From a virus (lineage: Duplodnaviria > Caudoviricetes), in IMG/VR virus record IMGVR_UViG_3300025073_000989: a DNA stretch of 64,000 nucleotides. One strand, given 5' to 3'. A model generated the notes under the pieces. That model worked only from the letters and a program-made list of their open reading frames with translations. It was not told where the DNA came from and did not search any database. Made by a program: the position numbers and the translations under genes. Of the stretch, positions 12,295 to 64,000 are shown piece by piece (within the stretch, counting starts at the first letter, position 1; each line of letters starts with the position of its first letter).

Positions 12295-12416
12295 ATATAA
12301 CGCCTAAATAAGCCGCCGATATGTAGAGCGGTGGCGAAACTACAAGGAGAATTTGAATGAACAAACTTCGCAACAGAACAGAGCTTCTAGCGGCCGGCTT
12401 GATTTTTTTGTTGGGC
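12295..12416 (-). repeat. Integron attC site A1 (minus polarity)
   Basis: Ends ATATAAC...GTTGGGC on +; arms AAAT-AAGCC-GCCG / CGGC-c-GGCTT-g-ATTT with two unpaired bases on the right arm. Confidence 0.8.
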
Positions 12417-12635
12417 GTTTCGGCCTTGGCTGGGTGCACAGACGCAAAAATGAAACAGTTTACAGCCCTTGGGTCGCCAGGAGAGATTGTTTGTTTTTCT
12501 GGCGGTAAAGAAATTTACAAGGGAATTTCAACCGGGAAAATATCTACAGAACAAGGGAGTGACGGATGGTATTTCCAGGAGCAGACCACCGGAAAACTAA
12601 TCCGTGTTTCTGGCGACTGCCTTATTCGGAACTGA
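12357..12635 (+). CDS. Cassette-borne lipoprotein
   Basis: Signal peptide with lipobox LAGC; AAGGAG RBS and ATG lie inside attC A1. Confidence 0.75.
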   Translation: MNKLRNRTELLAAGLIFLLGVSALAGCTDAKMKQFTALGSPGEIVCFSGGKEIYKGISTGKISTEQGSDGWYFQEQTTGKLIRVSGDCLIRN

Positions 12636-12636
12636 C

Positions 12637-12724
12637 GCCCAACGGTATTTTAACCTGCCGCGCCTATGGCTTGGCAGCAAATGCGACCGCGCTGCTCGCG
12701 GTCAGGTTGAAAATTTTGTTATGA
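12637..12724 (-). repeat. Integron attC site A2 (minus polarity)
   Basis: GCCCAAC (complement of GTTGGGC in A1)...GTTATGA; arms ATTTT-AACCTG-CCGCG / CGCGG-t-CAGGTT-g-AAAAT. Confidence 0.85.
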
Positions 12725-12754
12725 TGCGTAAGTTTTATTCCATTTTTTAAAAAG

Positions 12755-13945
12755 GTGAATTGTATGAAACAAGTAATTTCTACGGAACAGAAGCCTATTA
12801 AGTTGTGGTTGGATGATATTGAAGACGGGGCGCTTGCCCAAGCCAAGAACCTTGCCAACCTTCCTTTTATTTTCAAGCACATTGCTATTATGCCCGACTC
12901 GCATCAAGGCTACGGAATGCCTATTGGCGGGGTCATGGCCACACAGGGCGTTGTTGTCCCGAACGCTGTCGGTGTTGATATCGGATGCGGCATGTGCGCC
13001 CTCAAGACTTCCATTGCTACCCTTGACCAAGCAACGCTGAAAAAAATTATGGGCGGCTCGAAGGAATATAAAGGCGGCATAAGAAGTGCTGTGCCAGTCG
13101 GGTTTTCGCACCATTCTAAAAAACAGGACGAGGGATTGATGCCAAGAATTACAACTGGCTTGCCAATTGTTGAGAAAGAATACAGTTCCGCCTTGAAGCA
13201 GATCGGAACCCTTGGCGGAGGCAACCATTTTATTGAGATACAACAAGGCAATGATGGATTTGTGTGGTTGATGATCCATTCCGGCAGCCGGAATATAGGG
13301 TTTAAAGTGGCGCATCATTATAACGATGTGGCTATTTCTCTGAATGAGCGGTGGCGTTCTGCTGTACCGGCAAACTGGCAACTGGCGTTTTTGCCTTTGG
13401 ATAGCGAAGAAGGGCGAAGTTACTTGGCGGAAATGCAATACTGTGTTGATTTTGCGCTTGCCAGCCGGGGGCTTATGATGGAGTTGGTTAAACGTTCTAT
13501 TGTTGAGGTGATTGCAGATGTTACTTTTGGCGATATCATAAACATTGCCCATAACTACGCCACTATGGAGCACCACTTTGGAACAAACGTGATGATTCAC
13601 CGTAAGGGGGCTACAAAAGCCTACCCTGACCAACTTGGCATTATTCCCGGCAGCCAAGGGACTGCAAGCTACATCGTTCGGGGTAAGGGTGAACCTGAAA
13701 GTTTTATGTCTTGTTCTCATGGTGCCGGTCGCAAGATGGGGCGCAAACAAGCCGAGCGAGAACTTGACCTTAATGCCGAGATTGAAAGGCTTGATTCTAT
13801 GGGCGTTATTCATGCAATCCGATACCAGAAAGATTTAGATGAAGCACCAGGGGCTTATAAAGATATTTCTACCGTGATGAGTAACCAAACTGATTTAGTT
13901 GATATTGCAGTGGAACTAAGGCCACTGGCGGTTATTAAGGGGTAG
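12755..13945 (+). CDS. rtcB: RtcB RNA 2',3'-cyclic phosphate/5'-OH ligase, cassette-borne
   Basis: MPDSHQGYGMPIGG, VGVDIGCG, GTLGGGNHFIE, MIHSGSR, IHRKGAT, SCSHGAGR, DEAPGAYKDI; visibly GC-richer than flanks. Confidence 0.95.
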   Translation: MNCMKQVISTEQKPIKLWLDDIEDGALAQAKNLANLPFIFKHIAIMPDSHQGYGMPIGGVMATQGVVVPNAVGVDIGCGMCALKTSIATLDQATLKKIMGGSKEYKGGIRSAVPVGFSHHSKKQDEGLMPRITTGLPIVEKEYSSALKQIGTLGGGNHFIEIQQGNDGFVWLMIHSGSRNIGFKVAHHYNDVAISLNERWRSAVPANWQLAFLPLDSEEGRSYLAEMQYCVDFALASRGLMMELVKRSIVEVIADVTFGDIINIAHNYATMEHHFGTNVMIHRKGATKAYPDQLGIIPGSQGTASYIVRGKGEPESFMSCSHGAGRKMGRKQAERELDLNAEIERLDSMGVIHAIRYQKDLDEAPGAYKDISTVMSNQTDLVDIAVELRPLAVIKG

Positions 13946-13947
13946 CA

Positions 13948-14034
13948 TCATAACGCCAAAATAAGCTGTGCCGCCTATAGCGGTGCAGCAAAAACACCGG
14001 ATTTCCCGGCATCAGCTTAATTTTATTGTTATGC
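13948..14034 (-). repeat. Integron attC site A3 (minus polarity)
   Basis: TCATAAC (complement of GTTATGA in A2)...GTTATGC; arms AAAAT-AAGCTG-TGCCG / CGGCA-t-CAGCTT-a-ATTTT. Confidence 0.85.
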
Positions 14035-14357
14035 CATTCGTGGCGAGGAATTTCCTAATGGTTAAAATGAAAATAATTGACATCGATGGTGGCATCGGCA
14101 TGGAGTTCCCGAATGGTGTGGACTGCCTCAAGCAACATGGATTCGGGATGTTTCTTGAGTCCTGGGCGGATGGGGAATTGGTGATTACGCCAGAGGCAAA
14201 AAGGGCAATCCTCGAACACGGCAAGGAAATGAGTTTGGGAGGTATCGCGTTTTTCGATCAAAAAATGATCGGATTCATGCAGAACGAGATTCCTTTCGAT
14301 GGCATATCGGTTAACGGGAAATCCAAGGATTGGATTCGGGAGTTACCAGAGGCATAA
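13968..14357 (+). CDS. Cassette-borne hypothetical protein (start uncertain: 13968, 14031 or 14058)
   Basis: ORF fills the space between A3 and A4; its stop TAA is part of GGCATAA, the core-site complement. Confidence 0.6.
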   Translation: MPPIAVQQKHRISRHQLNFIVMPFVARNFLMVKMKIIDIDGGIGMEFPNGVDCLKQHGFGMFLESWADGELVITPEAKRAILEHGKEMSLGGIAFFDQKMIGFMQNEIPFDGISVNGKSKDWIRELPEA

Positions 14358-14435
14358 TATCGCTGGCGTAACCAGCCTGTCGCACATGAAAGGAGATTGA
14401 CACCATGACAACGCCTATTGACGTAATTGTTAGCT
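14352..14435 (-). repeat. Degenerate attC site A4
   Basis: GCATAAT (one mismatch to the GCATAAC expected from A3)...GTTAGCT; partial arms GGCGT/ACGCC and TGTC/GACA. Confidence 0.5.
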
Positions 14436-14638
14436 GGGTGCGCTACCAAGCGCGAATGTTTAAGCACCGACCACGGATGTTGTGGAACCGCGCATTCGTG
14501 CGGAAAAATGAGTTTCACAACAGCCTCGATATGGATGTCCGGTCGATGTACGACATGAACACTGAAGACCGGCAGCGATACATTGCCGATTTGATACGCC
14601 GCAGGAACATTGCACATGAGCGTGACATTGATAGCTAA
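14405..14638 (+). CDS. Cassette-borne hypothetical protein
   Basis: AAGGAG RBS and ATG inside A4; ends at AGCTAAC (14633-14639), the complement of GTTAGCT. Confidence 0.65.
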   Translation: MTTPIDVIVSWVRYQARMFKHRPRMLWNRAFVRKNEFHNSLDMDVRSMYDMNTEDRQRYIADLIRRRNIAHERDIDS

Positions 14639-14642
14639 CACA

Positions 14643-54034: not shown

Positions 54035-54263
54035 TTAATTCCGTATAATCTAAAGGATTACCACATCGTCTTAAATACCAACTTCCTCCGTCTACTGAAA
54101 CTGCACCGCAAGCACAGGACCTGTAATCGTGTCTATTTGTAGAACGAATTACTTCTCCACATAAATGACATCGTACTGAATTATTATAGATGGGCCCTAT
54201 ATTTAAACGGCTTCGTTCTTCCTTTGGTGTATCTATAGTTACAAAATTACGGTAGTACATCAT
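54012..54263 (-). CDS. Small zinc-binding phage protein
   Basis: RCHLCGEVIRS..HDYRSCACGAVSVDGG. Confidence 0.7.
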   Translation of the reverse strand: MMYYRNFVTIDTPKEERSRLNIGPIYNNSVRCHLCGEVIRSTNRHDYRSCACGAVSVDGGSWYLRRCGNPLDYTELSENFNDR

Positions 54264-55246
54264 ACTGGCCTCACATTATTAAAATACTTTATATCCAAAT
54301 CAAAAGTGTGTTTAATTCTAAGTTTGGCTATTTCAACATTTTTTGAATCCATTTCTATCCCCAAAAATTTTCTATTTAGTCTACGACAAGCTACGCCTAA
54401 AGATCCAGTGCCGCAGTAAATATCTACTACTAGTTGGTTTGGGCCACTTGTTAGCAACCGAACCAACCAAACTAAAATACCTAAGGGCTTGACAGAAACG
54501 TGCGTATTTTCAACCAAACCATTAGCTGTTTTTTCTTGACTGGAAGCTCTAGGACAATACTGAACATTGGTAGGAAGTGCACCCCTGGCAGAAGGAACCC
54601 AGCCCTTTCGACCTAATTTTTTAAATGTATTACTCTTAATATCAGACTGCATATGCATCTCGCCGGTATTTTCGAACCTTTTTATTATAGAGCTATGGTC
54701 TCCTTTATATGTCTGACGGGATTCTTCTAAATTTAGAAGATTTGTTTTATATAAATTCCAGTTGTTTAATTCAGAACCATCAAGCTTCTTCCTATATATT
54801 AAAATTGGGTTGTAGACGTTACGTAATTTACTACCGTAAGCTTCATCCTCCGTCCTGAAACCCTTAATATGAGTACCCTGTCCACACCACACCACCTGAT
54901 CCCTAAACTCAAATTGGGCTTGTGACATTCTTAGGCACAGTAACGGTACCATAGATGGCTGACAAAAAATGGCGATATGTCCACCAGGCTTAAGCTTGTC
55001 GTAGCAAAGATTCCAAATGTCTATGGACGGCATATCATCGTCCCAAGTTTCCATCTTAACTCCGTAAGGGGGATCTATAATAAAACAATGGACCGAACTA
55101 TCTGCTATTGTTGGTAAAATATCCTCACACCTTCCCTCTCTGACTTCAAAATCAGAACCCGCGCCAGTATATATTTCACTCTTCGGGTTATAGTTTTTTT
55201 CTCTAAATTCCTTGGTAAAAATATCATATATCATAGAATTGCTCAT
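54260..55246 (-). CDS. DNA amino-methyltransferase (N6-A/N4-C, beta class)
   Basis: Catalytic IIDPPYG precedes HVSVKP and SAM-binding VVDIYCGTGS. Confidence 0.85.
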   Translation of the reverse strand: MSNSMIYDIFTKEFREKNYNPKSEIYTGAGSDFEVREGRCEDILPTIADSSVHCFIIDPPYGVKMETWDDDMPSIDIWNLCYDKLKPGGHIAIFCQPSMVPLLCLRMSQAQFEFRDQVVWCGQGTHIKGFRTEDEAYGSKLRNVYNPILIYRKKLDGSELNNWNLYKTNLLNLEESRQTYKGDHSSIIKRFENTGEMHMQSDIKSNTFKKLGRKGWVPSARGALPTNVQYCPRASSQEKTANGLVENTHVSVKPLGILVWLVRLLTSGPNQLVVDIYCGTGSLGVACRRLNRKFLGIEMDSKNVEIAKLRIKHTFDLDIKYFNNVRPV

Positions 55247-55301
55247 TTATAATTTTCAATTAATCTATTATTACGTAAATAATTCCTTCGGAGTCGTCGG
55301 C

Positions 55302-56561
55302 TTAAACTAAGGCAGCGCTTTTCAGCGGCCGGCTAAAACGTCGTGTTTTAGGCCTTAGTAGCGATTTTCCTGTTTCAACCCGACCCCTATTTTCGGGAAT
55401 TGCTTCCCTATCGTCAAGTGGTTTTGCCGGTCCACAGGCTTTAGTAATTAAACTTCCCGCGCTCCTCGCGGTATTTAGTATCACCGTATTTTGGACGGTA
55501 TGCTTCAGTATAACCTGAGCTGCGGCTATATCTCTGTCGTGAGTTAGTCCGCAAGGGCATTTCCAGCTACGAATATTTAACGGGAGTTTCTCCGTAACAT
55601 AATTGCAATTAGGACAAACTCCTGTGCTTCGTTCGTATCTTGGATGTTTCAAAAGCTCTCTACCATTCCAGAGGGCTTTATGCGTTAAAAAAATGGTAAA
55701 CATGCCCCAGCCACAGTCTGTAACCGCACTGGCTAGCTTTCCCTGAGCTAAACTCGACACTTTTAGGTCCTCTATCGCTATCACTTGGTTTTCGCTTACG
55801 ATAGTGGTACTCAATTTGTGCAGGAAATCTTTCCGCTGATCACTTATTTTCTGGTGGAGATTTGCTACTTTTATTCTGGCTTTGGCTCTGTTAGAGCTTT
55901 TCTTCTTGGTTTTATTAAAACGTCTTTGGAGGATTTTAAGCTTCCTTTTAGACAGTTTATAAGGTATTGGTGGGGCAATTTTATCTCCGTCCGAAGTGGT
56001 AATAAAACTTTGAATACCAAGGTCAAGTCCGATCTTGTTATGAGACTTGAGCTTCATTGGTTTCGTGCAGTCGACCTGTAGAGAAACATACCAATCCCCA
56101 TTAGGCCTTTTTGAAATAGTGGCACTGTTGGGGAAGACTGGAACTTCATCAGACCATTTTACGTCGATTGGTCCTAACTTGGAAAGTTTTAGAAGTTTAC
56201 CTGATTGGAAGATATGAGTTCCCTGACGTTTATCCATTTGATAACACACGGAATTCTTGAACTTCTTAAACTTAGGATGCTCGGCTTCATGTCGGAAGAA
56301 CTTCTTATAGGCTTCATCCAAATCATACAAGGTGTTAGTCATTACCGTTACAGAAGCTTTTAAAAGCCAAGACTCATGCTTCTTAAGACAAGTTAAATCT
56401 CTGCTTAAGGTTACTACGTTGTGCTTAAATCCGTAGAGTTTGAACATGGAGTCTTTCTGATCCAGAGACCAATTCCAGACGAAGCGGGACGCAGCAAACT
56501 CCTTTTGGAGTTGTTTGCGCTGCTTAAGCGTGGGATAGATTCTGAATTTGAAAGCTCTCAT
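55302..56561 (-). CDS. tnpB: RNA-guided endonuclease TnpB
   Basis: AFKFRIYPT, RuvC IGLDLG / IAIEDL / HDRDIAAA, zinc finger CPNC..CPCG. Confidence 0.92.
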   Translation of the reverse strand: MRAFKFRIYPTLKQRKQLQKEFAASRFVWNWSLDQKDSMFKLYGFKHNVVTLSRDLTCLKKHESWLLKASVTVMTNTLYDLDEAYKKFFRHEAEHPKFKKFKNSVCYQMDKRQGTHIFQSGKLLKLSKLGPIDVKWSDEVPVFPNSATISKRPNGDWYVSLQVDCTKPMKLKSHNKIGLDLGIQSFITTSDGDKIAPPIPYKLSKRKLKILQRRFNKTKKKSSNRAKARIKVANLHQKISDQRKDFLHKLSTTIVSENQVIAIEDLKVSSLAQGKLASAVTDCGWGMFTIFLTHKALWNGRELLKHPRYERSTGVCPNCNYVTEKLPLNIRSWKCPCGLTHDRDIAAAQVILKHTVQNTVILNTARSAGSLITKACGPAKPLDDREAIPENRGRVETGKSLLRPKTRRFSRPLKSAALV

Positions 56562-56615
56562 TAATGCTCCTGATTAAGTTTAAAAATAGATCATACCATA
56601 CAAATTAGTTAAAGT

Positions 56616-56721
56616 CAAGTTAAATATTATAGAACGTAATATTTAACTCGTTCTTAGAAGCAAGTTAAATCTTATAGAACGTAATATTTAACTCGTTCTT
56701 AGAAGCAAGTTAAATCTTATA
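56616..56721. repeat. 45-bp tandem repeat (2 full units plus a partial) with internal inverted repeats
   Basis: caagttaaat(a/c)ttatagaacgtaatatttaactcgttcttagaag; AGTTAAAT/ATTTAACT and AGAACG/CGTTCT arms. Confidence 0.9.
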
Positions 56722-56750
56722 CTATTAAGGAAGCTAGTTAAACCCATGGA

Positions 56751-56880
56751 AAAATCGCCGCCGACGAAAGATACAACGCGCTACGACCTTCTGGCTAAGA
56801 GATACCAACCAGGTCGGCGGGCCGTAGCACATCCCTGTGCTACTTCAATGGCTGTCAAACAAGTAGCATTGAAAGATTTT
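56751..56880. ncRNA. GC-rich 130-nt multi-stem element, candidate structured RNA
   Basis: AAAATC/GATTTT closing stem, CCGCCGAC/GTCGGCGG, GTAGCAC/GTGCTAC, TTCAATG(G)CT/AGCATTGAA. Confidence 0.4.
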
Positions 56881-56908
56881 ACGTAAAAAACTTAACATAT
56901 TCAACCCC

Positions 56909-56956
56909 CTTCAACCAATACATCAACCTGACAAGCAGGTTATGTTTCTGTTGGGC
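56909..56956 (+). repeat. Short attC-like site B1 (plus polarity)
   Basis: CTTCAAC..ACAT-c-AACCTG-acaag-CAGGTT-ATGT..GTTGGGC; 48 bp, short for an attC. Confidence 0.6.
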
Positions 56957-57012
56957 CACATCTAGGTAGCCAGTTAATTTTAAATTCCTTCAATGATAAA
57001 GGAAGCTACATT

Positions 57013-57255
57013 ATGAACTTTGAAGACTTCAAAAATATAGTTCATTCAGAACCATACGAACGAGATAGTATTATTTACACTGTCTACGTAACATATGTTG
57101 ATAATCAATATTGTGGTTGGTGGTTTTGTGAAACATGTAATGTTAACTCAGATACAACCCCAAGTAAGCCATCAGATACAATTGAAAAAGCTATAATAGA
57201 TGCCAAAACTCATACAGGTGGACATCATTGGTCTAAACATCATCAAAGCACATGA
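57013..57255 (+). CDS. Cassette-borne hypothetical protein (sense to attC)
   Basis: AAGGAAG RBS; CxxC plus C-terminal His cluster. Confidence 0.6.
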   Translation: MNFEDFKNIVHSEPYERDSIIYTVYVTYVDNQYCGWWFCETCNVNSDTTPSKPSDTIEKAIIDAKTHTGGHHWSKHHQST

Positions 57256-57530
57256 GCAGGAATTAAACCACCGTATATTTCTAACTGCTCTGCTTTACAT
57301 AGATTATACAAAACTGGCTCAGGTACGATTTCCATACCAGGATACGGGTTTGTTTTAAAATTAACATTGACATCACTAGATAGTGAAATTGATAAATAAC
57401 CGTAAGTACCATCAGTGAATTTAATATCAACCCCTGTATGTGACCATTCTAATGTCTCTATTGTTTTACCTATGAAATCGTATAAAGGCATATTTGGATT
57501 TAATTCTTCTTTAGATTTTAGTTCTTTCAT
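57243..57530 (-). CDS. Cassette-borne hypothetical protein (antisense to attC)
   Basis: Minus strand GTTGGGC-AAAAGGAGGATTTATAT-ATG. Confidence 0.65.
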   Translation of the reverse strand: MKELKSKEELNPNMPLYDFIGKTIETLEWSHTGVDIKFTDGTYGYLSISLSSDVNVNFKTNPYPGMEIVPEPVLYNLCKAEQLEIYGGLIPAHVL

Positions 57531-57547
57531 ATATAAATCCTCCTTTT

Positions 57548-57640
57548 GCCCAACAAGTTAATCCAGCGGACGGCTGGAAGCTTGCTGAGGCGCTGCGCGG
57601 CGAGCTTATTGGCAGCCGCCGCTGATTAATAACGTTAGCA
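57548..57640 (+). repeat. Integron attC site B2
   Basis: GCCCAAC (complement of GTTGGGC in B1)...GTTAGCA; TTAATC-c-AGCGG-a-CGGCTG / CAGCCG-CCGCT-GATTAA. Confidence 0.9.
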
Positions 57641-57678
57641 AAACAATTACAAAACTTAAACCAACAAAGGAAACTCCT

Positions 57679-57933
57679 ATGAAAATCAAGTTTACATGGA
57701 TTAAAACTATTGATAACCCACAAGCCAGAACTTTTATAGAAAATAAAATTACTGAAATAATAAATTTAAAGAAATTTCCTGAGCATATCTATGAACAAAA
57801 TATTATCACCATACAATTAGAATCAAATAGAAAAGCTGAATATTCTGTGGACGGTATTATATTTGACCAAAATAATAAACAACTACACCGTTTTTCATTT
57901 GACTGTAGTAATGGTATCAACTCGCTAACATAG
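57679..57933 (+). CDS. Cassette-borne hypothetical protein (sense)
   Basis: AAGGA RBS; stop overlaps a core-like CGCTAAC at 57923-57929. Confidence 0.6.
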   Translation: MKIKFTWIKTIDNPQARTFIENKITEIINLKKFPEHIYEQNIITIQLESNRKAEYSVDGIIFDQNNKQLHRFSFDCSNGINSLT

Positions 57934-57936
57934 CAA

Positions 57937-58209
57937 TTAAATTTCGCGCGAAGAAGTGTTGTCCTCATTTATTGGGGTCTCTGGTTTCTGCTCAACTAAT
58001 CGGCTAATATCTGACATATTGTACCATATATGGTCGCCATTATATTTAACCATTATCCAGTCTTTAAAAAAGTGTATAAGGTAGGGTGTATAGTTATGAA
58101 CTTCCCCGTTCGTTTTAATTATGTGTAAATTTGCTTCAGGGTGTAATGAAGCTATATCATGACACATTTTATTTTCTGTTCGAACATCTTTAACTATTAA
58201 ACGTTCCAT
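57937..58209 (-). CDS. Cassette-borne hypothetical protein (antisense)
   Basis: AAAAGGAGATTTAT-ATG; RBS lies in a 12-bp inverted repeat 58209-58254. Confidence 0.6.
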   Translation of the reverse strand: MERLIVKDVRTENKMCHDIASLHPEANLHIIKTNGEVHNYTPYLIHFFKDWIMVKYNGDHIWYNMSDISRLVEQKPETPINEDNTSSREI

Positions 58210-58276
58210 ATAAATCTCCTTTTGTAGCCGCCAAACTTCGTTAGGAGATTTATAAAAAACCTAAAGAAAAACGGCG

Positions 58277-58366
58277 TGCTAACAACTGGTTCAACCTGAA
58301 CGGAACCAGCACTTGTTGTTTAAAAAATTACCCTTATTGGCCGTCAGGTTAACCAGGGTGTTATCT
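58277..58366 (+). repeat. Integron attC site B3
   Basis: TGCTAAC (complement of GTTAGCA in B2)...GTTATCT; TGGTT-c-AACCTGA-a-CGG / CCG-TCAGGTT-AACCA. Confidence 0.9.
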
Positions 58367-58391
58367 TCAAACTAAATAAAAATACTAAAAA

Positions 58392-58769
58392 ATGACTACA
58401 ACAATACTTGAATTAATTAATAACCACTGGACCACACTGATATCATTATTGATAACTATATGGTCTCTTTTAAGAAACTACAATTGGAAAAGAACATTAA
58501 GTATATACTTAAGTTTAATTGTAGATAACTCACATTCAGTTACAAAGTTAATAGCTGAGCATTGTGAAGACACTTGTATTAAACATAGTTCAGAAAACCT
58601 TAATCATCAAATAACTCATTTATTAAGTACCTTTCCAGCGCTGGCTAAAAAATGGATTTATATTAATAAACCAGAAGCTGAATGGCAGTCGTGGGAACAA
58701 AAACTTCAAATATCTATGGACACATACCGCTTGCGAAATCGCTTGCTAACTTTATTAAAACTGAAATAA
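58392..58769 (+). CDS. Cassette-borne membrane protein (sense)
   Basis: N-terminal hydrophobic helix; starts 25 nt after GTTATCT. Confidence 0.55.
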   Translation: MTTTILELINNHWTTLISLLITIWSLLRNYNWKRTLSIYLSLIVDNSHSVTKLIAEHCEDTCIKHSSENLNHQITHLLSTFPALAKKWIYINKPEAEWQSWEQKLQISMDTYRLRNRLLTLLKLK

Positions 58770-58887
58770 CAGCAACAGGTATTACAACATACTCAAAAAG
58801 TCCCATAAGTAACGGAGCAAAATCTATAATATCAAGTAAAGTAAAAATCATTACAGCAAATAAAACTAACATTACTATATTAAACAT
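58714..58887 (-). CDS. Cassette-borne two-helix membrane protein (antisense)
   Basis: Minus strand GTTATCT-GGAGGTGTAT-ATG (MFNIVMLV...). Confidence 0.6.
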   Translation of the reverse strand: MFNIVMLVLFAVMIFTLLDIIDFAPLLMGLFEYVVIPVAVISVLIKLASDFASGMCP

Positions 58888-58899
58888 ATATACACCTCC

Positions 58900-58987
58900 A
58901 GATAACAATTACATCCACCAGACGGCGAGAAGCTCGGAGTTTTTTATTCAAGCTTTTTAGCGCCGCTGGTGATGTAAGGCGTTATAC
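58900..58987 (+). repeat. Integron attC site B4
   Basis: AGATAAC (complement of GTTATCT in B3)...GTTATAC; TTACATC-c-ACCAG-a-CGGCG / CGCCG-CTGGT-GATGTAA. Confidence 0.9.
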
Positions 58988-58994
58988 TTTCAAA

Positions 58995-59747
58995 TTAAAA
59001 CACAATCCCCCATTTTCCTAACACATTAAGCCTACCAATGGGGTTTGTCAACTCGATAAGTTTCCTAAGTTTTAAACTAACAGCATTACCTAAAGTACCA
59101 TCCAACATTGCAGCAGCAAATGTATTATTTTCTGAAAGTAATTCGTTAATTTTGTCTGTATGTTTGTTCAAATCACCAAAGTATTTATGGCAGTCTACGT
59201 AGAGCCGTTCATTTATATCCCAATAATGGCCGTCAACAATAGCAAAACCATTTATAATATCTTTTTTATAGCTAACACAAACTACTAACACATCTAGCAC
59301 TGTGTTTTTAATATCCTTATTGGTCTCGGGATAAGTAAATTTTTTGGAAAGAGCGTTCTTAACAGTAACCGTGTCAGGATAAACAGAGGCGTTAGAAACA
59401 AAACGCTTATTTCTTCTATTAACGGCTTTCATTTCAATAATTACATTAGCACCTAAACATACAATATCAAAAGTTCCCTGAGAATGGATAGTTCTAAACT
59501 CCCACCCATCTTTAAATTCAGGAAACATATTATTTAAATGTTTTGCTAGTAATTTAGCATTAATATCTTCTTTATAAATAGTATCCCATGGTCTACTTAT
59601 TGCCGATAAATAGTCCGATATAGCCCTAGCCACAACCCGCTTAAAATAATTATTTGATTCAGTAATTCTAATATTTTCGTTGTAATTAATATACTCTTTT
59701 TTATTTTTAATTGCATTTATTGCATACTGATAGCTTTCTGTCCCCAT
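58995..59747 (-). CDS. Putative PD-(D/E)xK restriction-type endonuclease
   Basis: TFDIVCLGANVIIEMKAV fits a D-x(n)-ExK active site. Confidence 0.45.
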   Translation of the reverse strand: MGTESYQYAINAIKNKKEYINYNENIRITESNNYFKRVVARAISDYLSAISRPWDTIYKEDINAKLLAKHLNNMFPEFKDGWEFRTIHSQGTFDIVCLGANVIIEMKAVNRRNKRFVSNASVYPDTVTVKNALSKKFTYPETNKDIKNTVLDVLVVCVSYKKDIINGFAIVDGHYWDINERLYVDCHKYFGDLNKHTDKINELLSENNTFAAAMLDGTLGNAVSLKLRKLIELTNPIGRLNVLGKWGIVF

Positions 59748-63885: not shown

Positions 63886-64000
63886 TCGGAGTCGTCGGCT
63901 TAAACTAAGGCAGCGCTTTTCAGCGGCCGGCTAAAACGTCGTGTTTTAGGCCTTAGTAGCGATTTTCCTGTTTCAACCCGACCCCTATTTTCGGGAATTG
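63886..64000 (-). mobile_element. Right end of a second copy of the TnpB element (runs off the window)
   Basis: 115 bp identical to 55288-55402. Confidence 0.9.

What the first reader, a model, noticed from the sequence alone, without database searches (positions are those of the whole stretch)
56909..58987. Second attC array (B) in which every cassette holds a convergent gene pair
Four attC sites are chained by exact core complementarity (GTTGGGC/GCCCAAC, GTTAGCA/TGCTAAC, GTTATCT/AGATAAC); B2-B4 have the textbook C and A extra bases. Each of the three cassettes contains one plus ORF and one minus ORF meeting tail to tail (13-bp overlap, 3-bp gap, 56-bp overlap). In two cassettes the minus gene RBS starts directly at the core site. 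Such two-way cassettes would express one gene in a host integron and the other in the phage context, or act as antisense-controlled pairs. A stray CGCTAAC at 57923 hints at an older nested cassette.
Basis: partly seen in the sequence, partly recalled or inferred. Interest (0 to 1): 0.85.

Follow-up and report, generated by a model that had tools for sequence, protein, structure and literature searches.

The report
Phage attC array with two-way cassettes
A jumbo-phage genome carries a real integron-type array of three mobile gene cassettes, each holding two small genes that face each other, and one cassette also occurs letter for letter in a bacterial chromosomal cassette array, so phage and bacterium draw on the same cassette pool.

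Summary
Four attC sites lie on the + strand: B1 56909-56956 (short and weak), B2 57548-57640, B3 58277-58366 and B4 58900-58987. They bound three cassettes. A covariance model built from the phage's own sites also finds the genuine attC of aadA1 in plasmid R100, and attCs beside a bona fide intI in a Desulfobulbaceae genome. Both hits have the classical polarity.

Cassette c1 (56950-57636) recurs at 100% identity in other metagenome contigs. Identity starts at the G of GTTGGGC and stops after AACGTT. In those contigs c1 sits between different cassettes in a 57%-GC chromosome related to Desulfobulbaceae.

All six ORFs look real:
- Diverged copies of c1 and c3 keep both genes tail to tail (dN/dS 0.12-0.26, and 0.69 for the 57-aa membrane protein).
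- The c2 genes have no homologs, but they pass a coding test trained on the phage's genes.

No integrase was found in the window, so the array is a CALIN (attC cluster lacking an integrase), a kind already reported in phages.

New here are the conserved, promoterless convergent gene pairs and the attC polarity opposed to phage transcription. Expression in two directions is inferred, not shown. The nested cassette proposed at 57923 is not supported. Other first-reader notes on this same genome describe array A and the reversed polarity.

The parts
56909..56956 (+). attC B1: minimal 48-bp site (R'' CTTCAAC, L box ACAT-C-AACCTG-A-C, R' GTTGGGC). It marks the left edge of the array and may be the entry site.
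   Evidence: Model R1 gives 22.7 bits, E 0.005 over 139 kb and E 1e-4 locally. It also scans as a terminator-like hairpin on +.
56950..57636 (+). Cassette c1 as a mobile unit (G|TTGGGC ... AACG|TT).
   Evidence: 100% identical over exactly this span, with different flanks, in L002/L016, L005, L007 and L200.
57013..57255 (+). P0001, 80 aa, attC-sense gene of c1. Small protein with a conserved C-x2-C...H-x4-H pattern, consistent with metal binding.
   Evidence: 25 family representatives at E<1e-3. C39, C42, H71 and H76 are invariant. AF2 pLDDT 88. 74% identical copy in L021, dN/dS 0.26. Coding score is above all 61 shadow ORFs.
57243..57530 (-). P0002, 95 aa, attC-antisense gene of c1, with RBS AAAAGGAGG next to the B2 core.
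   Evidence: Homologs at 71% and 67% identity. dN/dS 0.12 against L021. Partial homolog paired again with a P0001 relative in L107. Coding score 0.142.
57548..57640 (+). attC B2 (93 bp) with extra C and A.
   Evidence: R1 81.7 bits. The body is identical in the bacterial array, but R' is GTTCGGC there and GTTAGCA here.
57679..57933 (+). P0003, 84 aa, attC-sense gene of c2, with a weak HPF/YfiA-like fold.
   Evidence: Coding score 0.093, above all shadow ORFs. ESM model pLDDT 0.80 with TM 0.58 to HPF clusters. AF2 single-sequence pLDDT 77. Many HPF/YfiA rows at E 0.06-0.5. No sequence homolog among phage records.
57937..58209 (-). P0004, 90 aa, attC-antisense gene of c2, with RBS AAAAGGAGA.
   Evidence: Coding score 0.120, above all shadow ORFs. 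No homolog found. It rests on intrinsic signal only.
58277..58366 (+). attC B3 (90 bp) with extra C and A.
   Evidence: R1 76.6 bits on +, 16.3 bits on -.
58392..58769 (+). P0005, 125 aa, attC-sense gene of c3, no visible RBS.
   Evidence: 60% identical homolog P0011 on three contigs. dN/dS 0.25. Weakest coding score of the six, 0.038.
58714..58887 (-). P0006, 57 aa, attC-antisense gene of c3, with two hydrophobic segments and RBS GGAGGTG next to the B4 core.
   Evidence: 35% identical 63-aa partner at the same place in L023 (E 5e-8 pairwise). Both are strongly hydrophobic. Coding score 0.126. dN/dS 0.69, saturated.
58900..58987 (+). attC B4 (88 bp) with extra C and A; right edge of the array.
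   Evidence: R1 89.2 bits. Phage gene 58995-59747 (-) follows directly.

Best explanation
Array B is a genuine integron-type cassette array without its own integrase (a CALIN) inside a jumbo-phage genome. Its three cassettes are units cut and joined at G|TT by an integron integrase that the phage borrows from a host. The nearest bacterial relatives of the second carrier of cassette c1 all encode such an integrase. Each cassette is a conserved two-gene unit with the genes tail to tail. Neither gene has room for a promoter of its own: 25-56 nt lie between the R' core and the + start, and 12-17 nt between the - start and the attC in c1 and c3. Each gene therefore depends on transcription entering from its own side. 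In the phage the attC polarity opposes local transcription, so the attC-antisense genes, which have strong RBSs, are read as the tail of the phage operon running 63.5 to 59 kb on the - strand. In a bacterial array read from Pc, the attC-sense genes are the ones read. Because the 3' ends touch or overlap, reading one gene makes antisense RNA to the other. Shown: the sites, their polarity, the cassette boundaries, the sharing with a bacterial array, and that the genes are real. Inferred: the integrase source, which strand is transcribed where, and the antisense effect. I put the structural part at about 0.9 and the orientation-dependent expression at about 0.4.
For: attC identity and polarity: model R1, built from six sites of this window and one locus, finds attC aadA1 of R100 on the aadA1 strand at 44 bits against 11.6 on the other strand. 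It also finds two sites beside a TIGR02249-positive intI in Desulfobulbaceae genome G006, pointing away from intI. Mobility: c1 has exact G|TT-type boundaries and different neighbours in at least four independent assemblies. Independent assemblies also confirm the order phage genes-c3-c2-c1-B1 (L003, L010, L014). Bacterial carrier: c1 lies between an Ank cassette and an HNH-to-Polbeta cassette, followed by a TIR-phosphoesterase-PNP cassette, MazE-PIN, and then Amt, P-II, TrkA and TrkH at 55-59% GC. Amt is 79% identical to Desulfobulbaceae MAGs. The neighbours there are attC-sense. Gene reality. Promoterless layout and RBSs. The promoter scan was not above chance. A P0002 relative (P0010) sits alone among co-directional genes, so P0002-like proteins do not strictly need a P0001 partner.
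Against: There are no expression data. No integrase was found in the 64-kb window or any fetched locus, and the other 212 kb of the genome could not be searched. Both genes of c1 show steady purifying selection over about 50-70% divergence. That fits a pair of products working together at least as well as alternating use. P0005 has no recognisable RBS. P0004 has no homolog. One contig that links phage and bacterial sequence (L001/L015) is probably a chimeric assembly through the shared repeat, so the 100% sharing rests on the other contigs. The phage's 33% GC against the bacterium's 57% GC makes a host relation uncertain.
Confidence: 0.55

Rival explanations
1. Each cassette is a self-contained two-protein module, such as toxin and antitoxin or effector and immunity. 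Both products are made in the same cell and act on each other. The convergent overlap serves only to tune their ratio by antisense RNA. Host or phage context plays no role.
For: The P0001/P0002 pair is kept together in three copies diverged to about 50-70%. The P0005/P0006 pair is kept in a copy at 35-60% identity. Both members are under purifying selection. P0006 is a tiny two-segment membrane protein, as many small toxins are. Two-gene cassettes in chromosomal integrons are typically toxin-antitoxin pairs (established knowledge). c1 sits among defence-like cassettes.
Against: Known toxin-antitoxin cassettes carry their own promoter and are co-directional. Here there is no room for promoters, and the promoter scan is at chance level. 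There are no matches to Pfam, NCBIfam or PADLOC toxin, antitoxin or defence families. P0010, a P0002 relative, occurs without a partner.
Confidence: 0.28
2. The pairs are historical accidents. Each arose from two single-gene cassettes, one of them inverted, that fused after losing the attC between them. Only the phage-sense genes matter in the phage, and the attC-sense genes are passengers.
For: All seven cassettes of arrays A and B have a gene antisense to their attC. Array A has only such genes. The Atlas look-alikes of P0002 and P0004 are viral, and those of P0003 are bacterial (all scores under 0.9, so these are leads only).
Against: The same pairing and the tail-to-tail contact recur in diverged copies (L021, L107, L023). 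The attC-sense genes there show dN/dS of 0.25-0.26, so they are not decaying passengers. No attC remnant lies between the genes.
Confidence: 0.12
3. The hairpins are native phage intergenic elements (terminators or regulatory stem-loops) that merely resemble attC, and the units are ordinary phage morons.
For: A related jumbo phage has a single AAC...GTT hairpin just before an RBS (L192). B1 scans as a terminator-like hairpin.
Against: The model built on these sites finds real attCs with the right polarity. c1 moves as a unit with boundaries at G|TT between unrelated neighbours. Relatives of the phage have no such sites at this locus.
Confidence: 0.04

Closest known systems
CALINs (clusters of attC sites lacking an integrase) in phage genomes: Qi, Rajabal, Ghaly, Tetu and Gillings 2023, Front Microbiol, PMC9892861
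   Same: Arrays of at least two attC sites without intI in virulent and temperate phages. That paper also reports divergently oriented attCs, several ORFs between adjacent attCs, a DNA methyltransferase association, and a CALIN next to a terminator-like hairpin with GTT cores. Here a DNA methyltransferase gene lies 1.7 kb away and B1 is terminator-like.
   Different: This is a ~276-kb jumbo phage with two arrays. Every cassette carries a gene antisense to its attC. Three cassettes are conserved convergent pairs. One cassette is shared letter for letter with a bacterial chromosomal array.
Classical integron cassettes, for example aadA1 with its attC in In2 of plasmid R100
   Same: R''/R' cores, L boxes, an extra C then A on the top strand, crossover at G|TT, and core chaining between successive cassettes.
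   Different: Classical cassettes hold one promoterless gene in the attC sense and are read from Pc beside intI and attI. Here there is no intI, attI or Pc in view, and each cassette has a second gene on the other strand.
Two-gene toxin-antitoxin cassettes of sedentary chromosomal integrons (Vibrio superintegron)
   Same: Two small genes in one cassette, often reversed relative to the array (established knowledge).
   Different: Those pairs are co-directional operons with their own promoter and belong to known families. These pairs are convergent, promoterless and match no family.
Antisense promoters in integron cassettes: Blanco et al. 2024, NAR, PMC11014356
   Same: Transcription entering a cassette from the antisense side exists in superintegrons and silences the sense gene upstream. 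This is the interference proposed here.
   Different: That work concerned gene-less cassettes and reporter genes, not protein-coding genes placed on the antisense strand.

Membership tests
attC recombination site | R'' ...AAC and R' GTT... cores flanking imperfect L''/L' repeats; length about 57-141 bp | tested here: met
   B2, B3 and B4 are 93, 90 and 88 bp. B1 is 48 bp, below the usual range, and scores only 22.7 bits.
attC recombination site | Two extrahelical bases at fixed places on the bottom strand (top strand: extra C then A in the 5' arm) that set polarity | tested here: met
   The pattern matches attC aadA1 in the cmsearch alignment. Strand asymmetry is 77-89 bits against 7-16 bits.
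attC recombination site | Cassette exchange at G|TT of R', seen as breakpoints between natural variants | tested here: met
   c1 is identical from G|TTGGGC to AACGTT| with unrelated flanks on both sides.
attC recombination site | Recombined by an integron integrase as a folded bottom strand | not testable with these tools
   This needs an attC x attI conjugation assay, as in PMC9892861.
Complete integron | intI with attI and Pc next to the array | tested here: not met
   tblastn with IntI1 of R100 found nothing at E<=10 in the window or the c1-bearing loci. The rest of the genome was not available.
CALIN | At least two attC sites close together with no intI nearby | tested here: met
   Four sites lie within 2.1 kb, with no intI within the 64-kb window.
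Toxin-antitoxin cassette | Match to a known toxin or antitoxin family, own promoter, co-directional operon | tested here: not met
   No Pfam, NCBIfam or PADLOC match. The genes are convergent. The promoter scan is at chance level. Toxicity was not tested.
HPF/YfiA ribosome hibernation factors (for P0003) | Sequence match to Ribosomal_S30AE and the beta-alpha-beta-beta-beta-alpha fold | tested here: inconclusive
   No Pfam hit. Fold likeness is weak: TM 0.58 by query in the Atlas, and Foldseek E 0.06-0.5 with TM about 0.4 against many HPF/YfiA chains. The last helix is missing in the model.

The most novel reading that the evidence does not exclude
Cassettes written on both strands serve as a shared currency between phage and host. 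The attC-sense gene serves the bacterium when read from an integron promoter, perhaps as a defence function, since c1 sits among defence-like cassettes. The attC-antisense gene serves the phage when the same cassette sits reversed in a phage operon, perhaps as a counter-measure. Transcription of one silences the other through the 3' overlap. The phage arrays would then be a selected, reversed subset of the cassette pool. Their recombinogenic bottom strand lies on the non-template strand of phage transcription.
Probability: 0.15. Interest if true: 0.85.

Novelty: new variant of a known kind. Interest (0 to 1): 0.62.

Why it matters
Phage CALINs are known, but their cargo and their traffic with hosts are barely described. 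Three points stand out here.
- A cassette is identical to the base in a jumbo phage and in a bacterial chromosomal array, with textbook crossover points. This is direct evidence that a phage and a bacterium use one cassette pool. It also gives a host lead for an uncultured jumbo phage (Desulfobulbaceae-like).
- The cassette architecture, two promoterless genes tail to tail and conserved across diverged copies, is not part of the standard picture of one sense gene per cassette.
- All seven cassettes of the two phage arrays carry genes antisense to their attC. This suggests that phages keep a special, reversed class of cassettes.
If strand choice decides which protein is made, integron cassettes would be orientation-dependent switches. 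That could be tested with simple cloning in both orientations.

Tried and rejected
- Whole genome: not held for this window.
- Phage records: no DNA match for the region or for 20 kb of the window. No protein match for P0003 or P0004.
- IMG/VR: no relative of P0002 or of the P0001 family.
- GTDB genomes: no P0001 family member. The full 22-sequence alignment was too diverse to use as a query.
- Metagenome scan: returned only the same sample.
- Rfam: nothing in 54-60 kb.
- Pfam, PHROGs, NCBIfam and PADLOC: nothing for the six ORFs.
- Fold search with the P0001 model: no solved structure, and only unnamed small proteins in AFDB.
- Promoter scan: 13 sites found against 15 expected.
- RNA fold of the P0004 leader: the minimum-energy fold does not use the anti-SD/SD repeat, z -2.1.
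- Nested cassette at 57923: rejected.
- attC sites at the same locus in 13 related phage loci: none.
- attC or intI near Amt in related Desulfobulbaceae MAGs: none.
- Upstream extension of the bacterial array: the Ank protein lookup returned only the same contig, and the 333-aa phage protein lookup returned only short contigs.
- Contig L001/L015, which joins phage and bacterial DNA: judged a likely assembly chimera through the shared TnpB and c1 repeats, and not used as evidence.

Full report
**What is there**

The window is a 33%-GC stretch of a 275,832-bp contig. Its gene content is that of a jumbo phage: RNA polymerase beta-like protein, helicase, RNA ligase, NAMPT and tail fibres. Relatives at 52-61% protein identity lie on IMG/VR contigs of 73-228 kb. 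From 43.8 to 63.6 kb the long genes run on the - strand.

Between 56909 and 58987 lie four imperfect palindromes on the + strand:
- B1, 56909-56956
- B2, 57548-57640
- B3, 58277-58366
- B4, 58900-58987

Each R'' core is the exact complement of the preceding R' core: GTTGGGC/GCCCAAC, GTTAGCA/TGCTAAC, GTTATCT/AGATAAC. B2-B4 have an extra C and then an extra A in the 5' arm.

**Are they attC sites, and which way do they point?**

I aligned six sites (B2-B4, two from array A, one from a related contig) and built covariance model R1 with a hand-set structure. Window hits:

| Site | Strand | Bits |
|---|---|---|
| B4 | + | 89 |
| B2 | + | 82 |
| B3 | + | 77 |
| Array A, three sites | - | 47-81 |
| B1 | + | 22.7 (E 0.005) |

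The model was built on my own choice of strand, so I tested it on independent sites.
- In plasmid R100 it finds the attC of aadA1 directly after the gene and on the gene's strand. The score is 44 bits, against 11.6 bits on the other strand, and the C and A bulges align.
- In a Desulfobulbaceae genome it finds two sites next to an integrase that passes the curated integron-integrase cut-off. Both point away from intI.

So the sites are of the integron type and the top strand of array B is +. B1 is a minimal 48-bp version that keeps the L box but has no variable loop. It is also terminator-like. It may be the site through which the array entered.

**Are the units mobile cassettes?**

Yes for c1. 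The stretch 56950-57636 is 100% identical in contigs from several other samples. Identity begins at the G of GTTGGGC and ends after AACGTT. Outside these points the flanks are unrelated.

In those contigs c1 sits in a longer array:
- an ankyrin cassette, then c1;
- an HNH-to-Polbeta cassette and a TIR-phosphoesterase-PNP cassette;
- an IS200/IS605 transposase and MazE-PIN;
- then Amt, P-II, TrkA and TrkH at 55-59% GC.

The Amt protein is 79% identical to Desulfobulbaceae MAGs. The three nearest MAGs each encode an integron integrase. The neighbouring cassettes look like defence genes. Their genes are attC-sense, as is P0001 there.

Independent assemblies confirm the order phage genes-c3-c2-c1-B1. 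Cassettes c2 and c3 were seen only in the phage context. One contig that joins phage and bacterial sequence (L001/L015) passes through two repeats and is probably chimeric, so I did not rely on it.

No integrase was found in the window or in the c1-bearing loci, so the array is a CALIN.

**Are both genes of each pair real?**

| Cassette | Evidence |
|---|---|
| c1 | A diverged cassette (L021) keeps both genes tail to tail: 74% and 71% identity, dN/dS 0.26 and 0.12, with a different, shorter attC. A third copy (L107) again pairs a P0001 relative (52%) with a P0002 relative behind an attC. |
| c3 | Three contigs keep P0005 (60% identity, dN/dS 0.25) overlapping a 63-aa partner of P0006 (35% identity). 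Both partners have two hydrophobic segments. |
| c2 | No homolog was found for P0004, and none for P0003 among phage records. |

P0001 belongs to a family of about 75-aa proteins with invariant C39, C42, H71 and H76. Its predicted fold is confident but unlike any solved structure.

For c2, a three-periodic Markov model trained on 35 long genes of the window scores both ORFs above all 61 shadow ORFs, and each scores best in its own frame. P0003 folds confidently from a single sequence and weakly resembles HPF/YfiA. Long ORFs on both strands arise in at most 0.02% of shuffled cassettes.

**How it most likely works**

The space between the R' core and the + start is 56, 38 and 25 nt. The space between the - start and the attC is 17, 67 and 12 nt. 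The promoter scan is at chance level. Both genes thus depend on outside transcription.

In the phage the - genes have strong RBSs (AAAAGGAGG, AAAAGGAGA, GGAGGTG) and follow the phage genes of the same strand. They should be read as the tail of that operon. In a bacterial array the + genes lie in the Pc direction.

The touching 3' ends mean that reading one gene gives antisense RNA to the other. Antisense silencing inside cassette arrays has been shown experimentally in Vibrio (PMC11014356).

The main rival is a self-contained two-protein module. The steady co-inheritance and purifying selection of both partners favour it. The promoterless convergent layout, the lack of any family match and a lone P0002 relative count against it.

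**Comparison with what is known**

CALINs in phages, their recognition by IntI1, mixed orientations and several ORFs per cassette were reported by Qi et al. 2023 (PMC9892861). Defence genes in integron cassettes are also known (bioRxiv 10.1101/2024.07.02.601719). Three things are new here:
- the conserved convergent pairs;
- every cassette of both phage arrays carries a gene antisense to its attC;
- a cassette is shared to the base with a bacterial array.

Related phages lack attC sites at this locus. One of five related phage records has a single attC-like hairpin.

**Verdict**

This is a new variant of a known kind.

Noticed in passing
window 55288-56745 and 63886-64000: There are two copies of a TnpB (IS200/IS605-type) element. 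Their 3' ends are identical over 115 bp, and the second copy runs off the window. They bracket array B plus five phage genes. Metagenome assemblies break or mis-join here (L001/L015, L010).
   Followed up: partly
window 56600-56745: Tandem copies of a roughly 45-bp unit (AAGTTAAAT...TTAGAAGC) form long hairpins just upstream of tnpB. This is probably the left end of the IS. It scores as a false attC in naive AAC...GTT scans.
   Followed up: no
window 56746-56900: A 49%-GC segment lies between the IS end and B1. Its 46-aa ORF fails the coding test and Rfam finds nothing. A weak + strand promoter-like site, TTGAAA-18-TAACAT, lies at 56869-56898 and faces the array.
   Followed up: partly
window 58210-58260, - strand: AAATCTCCT lies 27 nt upstream of the P0004 RBS AGGAGATTT and could mask it. 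The minimum-energy fold uses another pairing.
   Followed up: partly
window 12295-14640 (array A): Three strong attC hits lie on the - strand (47-81 bits) around + strand genes, including an rtcB-like ORF, in a 46%-GC island. The genes are all antisense to their attC, as in array B.
   Followed up: partly
L016 1-6000 and L200 (bacterial contigs): The Desulfobulbaceae-like cassette array holds defence-like cargo: a TIR-phosphoesterase-PNP protein of 771 aa, an HNH effector-like protein and a small Polbeta nucleotidyltransferase. An IS200/IS605 TnpA and MazE-PIN lie nearby. L200 shows at least one more attC further upstream.
   Followed up: partly
L192 1501-1551 (related jumbo phage, IMG/VR 3300022188_000229): A single 51-bp attC-like hairpin (35.9 bits) lies on the strand opposite to the genes, directly before an AAAAGGAGG RBS. 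The geometry matches that of the - genes of array B.
   Followed up: partly
L021 462-809 (-): The database gene call of 115 aa for the P0001 homolog probably starts too early. The match to P0001 begins at its residue 36.
   Followed up: yes
window 54260-55246 (-): An N6/N4 DNA methyltransferase gene lies next to the TnpB element, 1.7 kb from the array. Qi et al. noted methyltransferases as cargo of phage cassettes.
   Followed up: no
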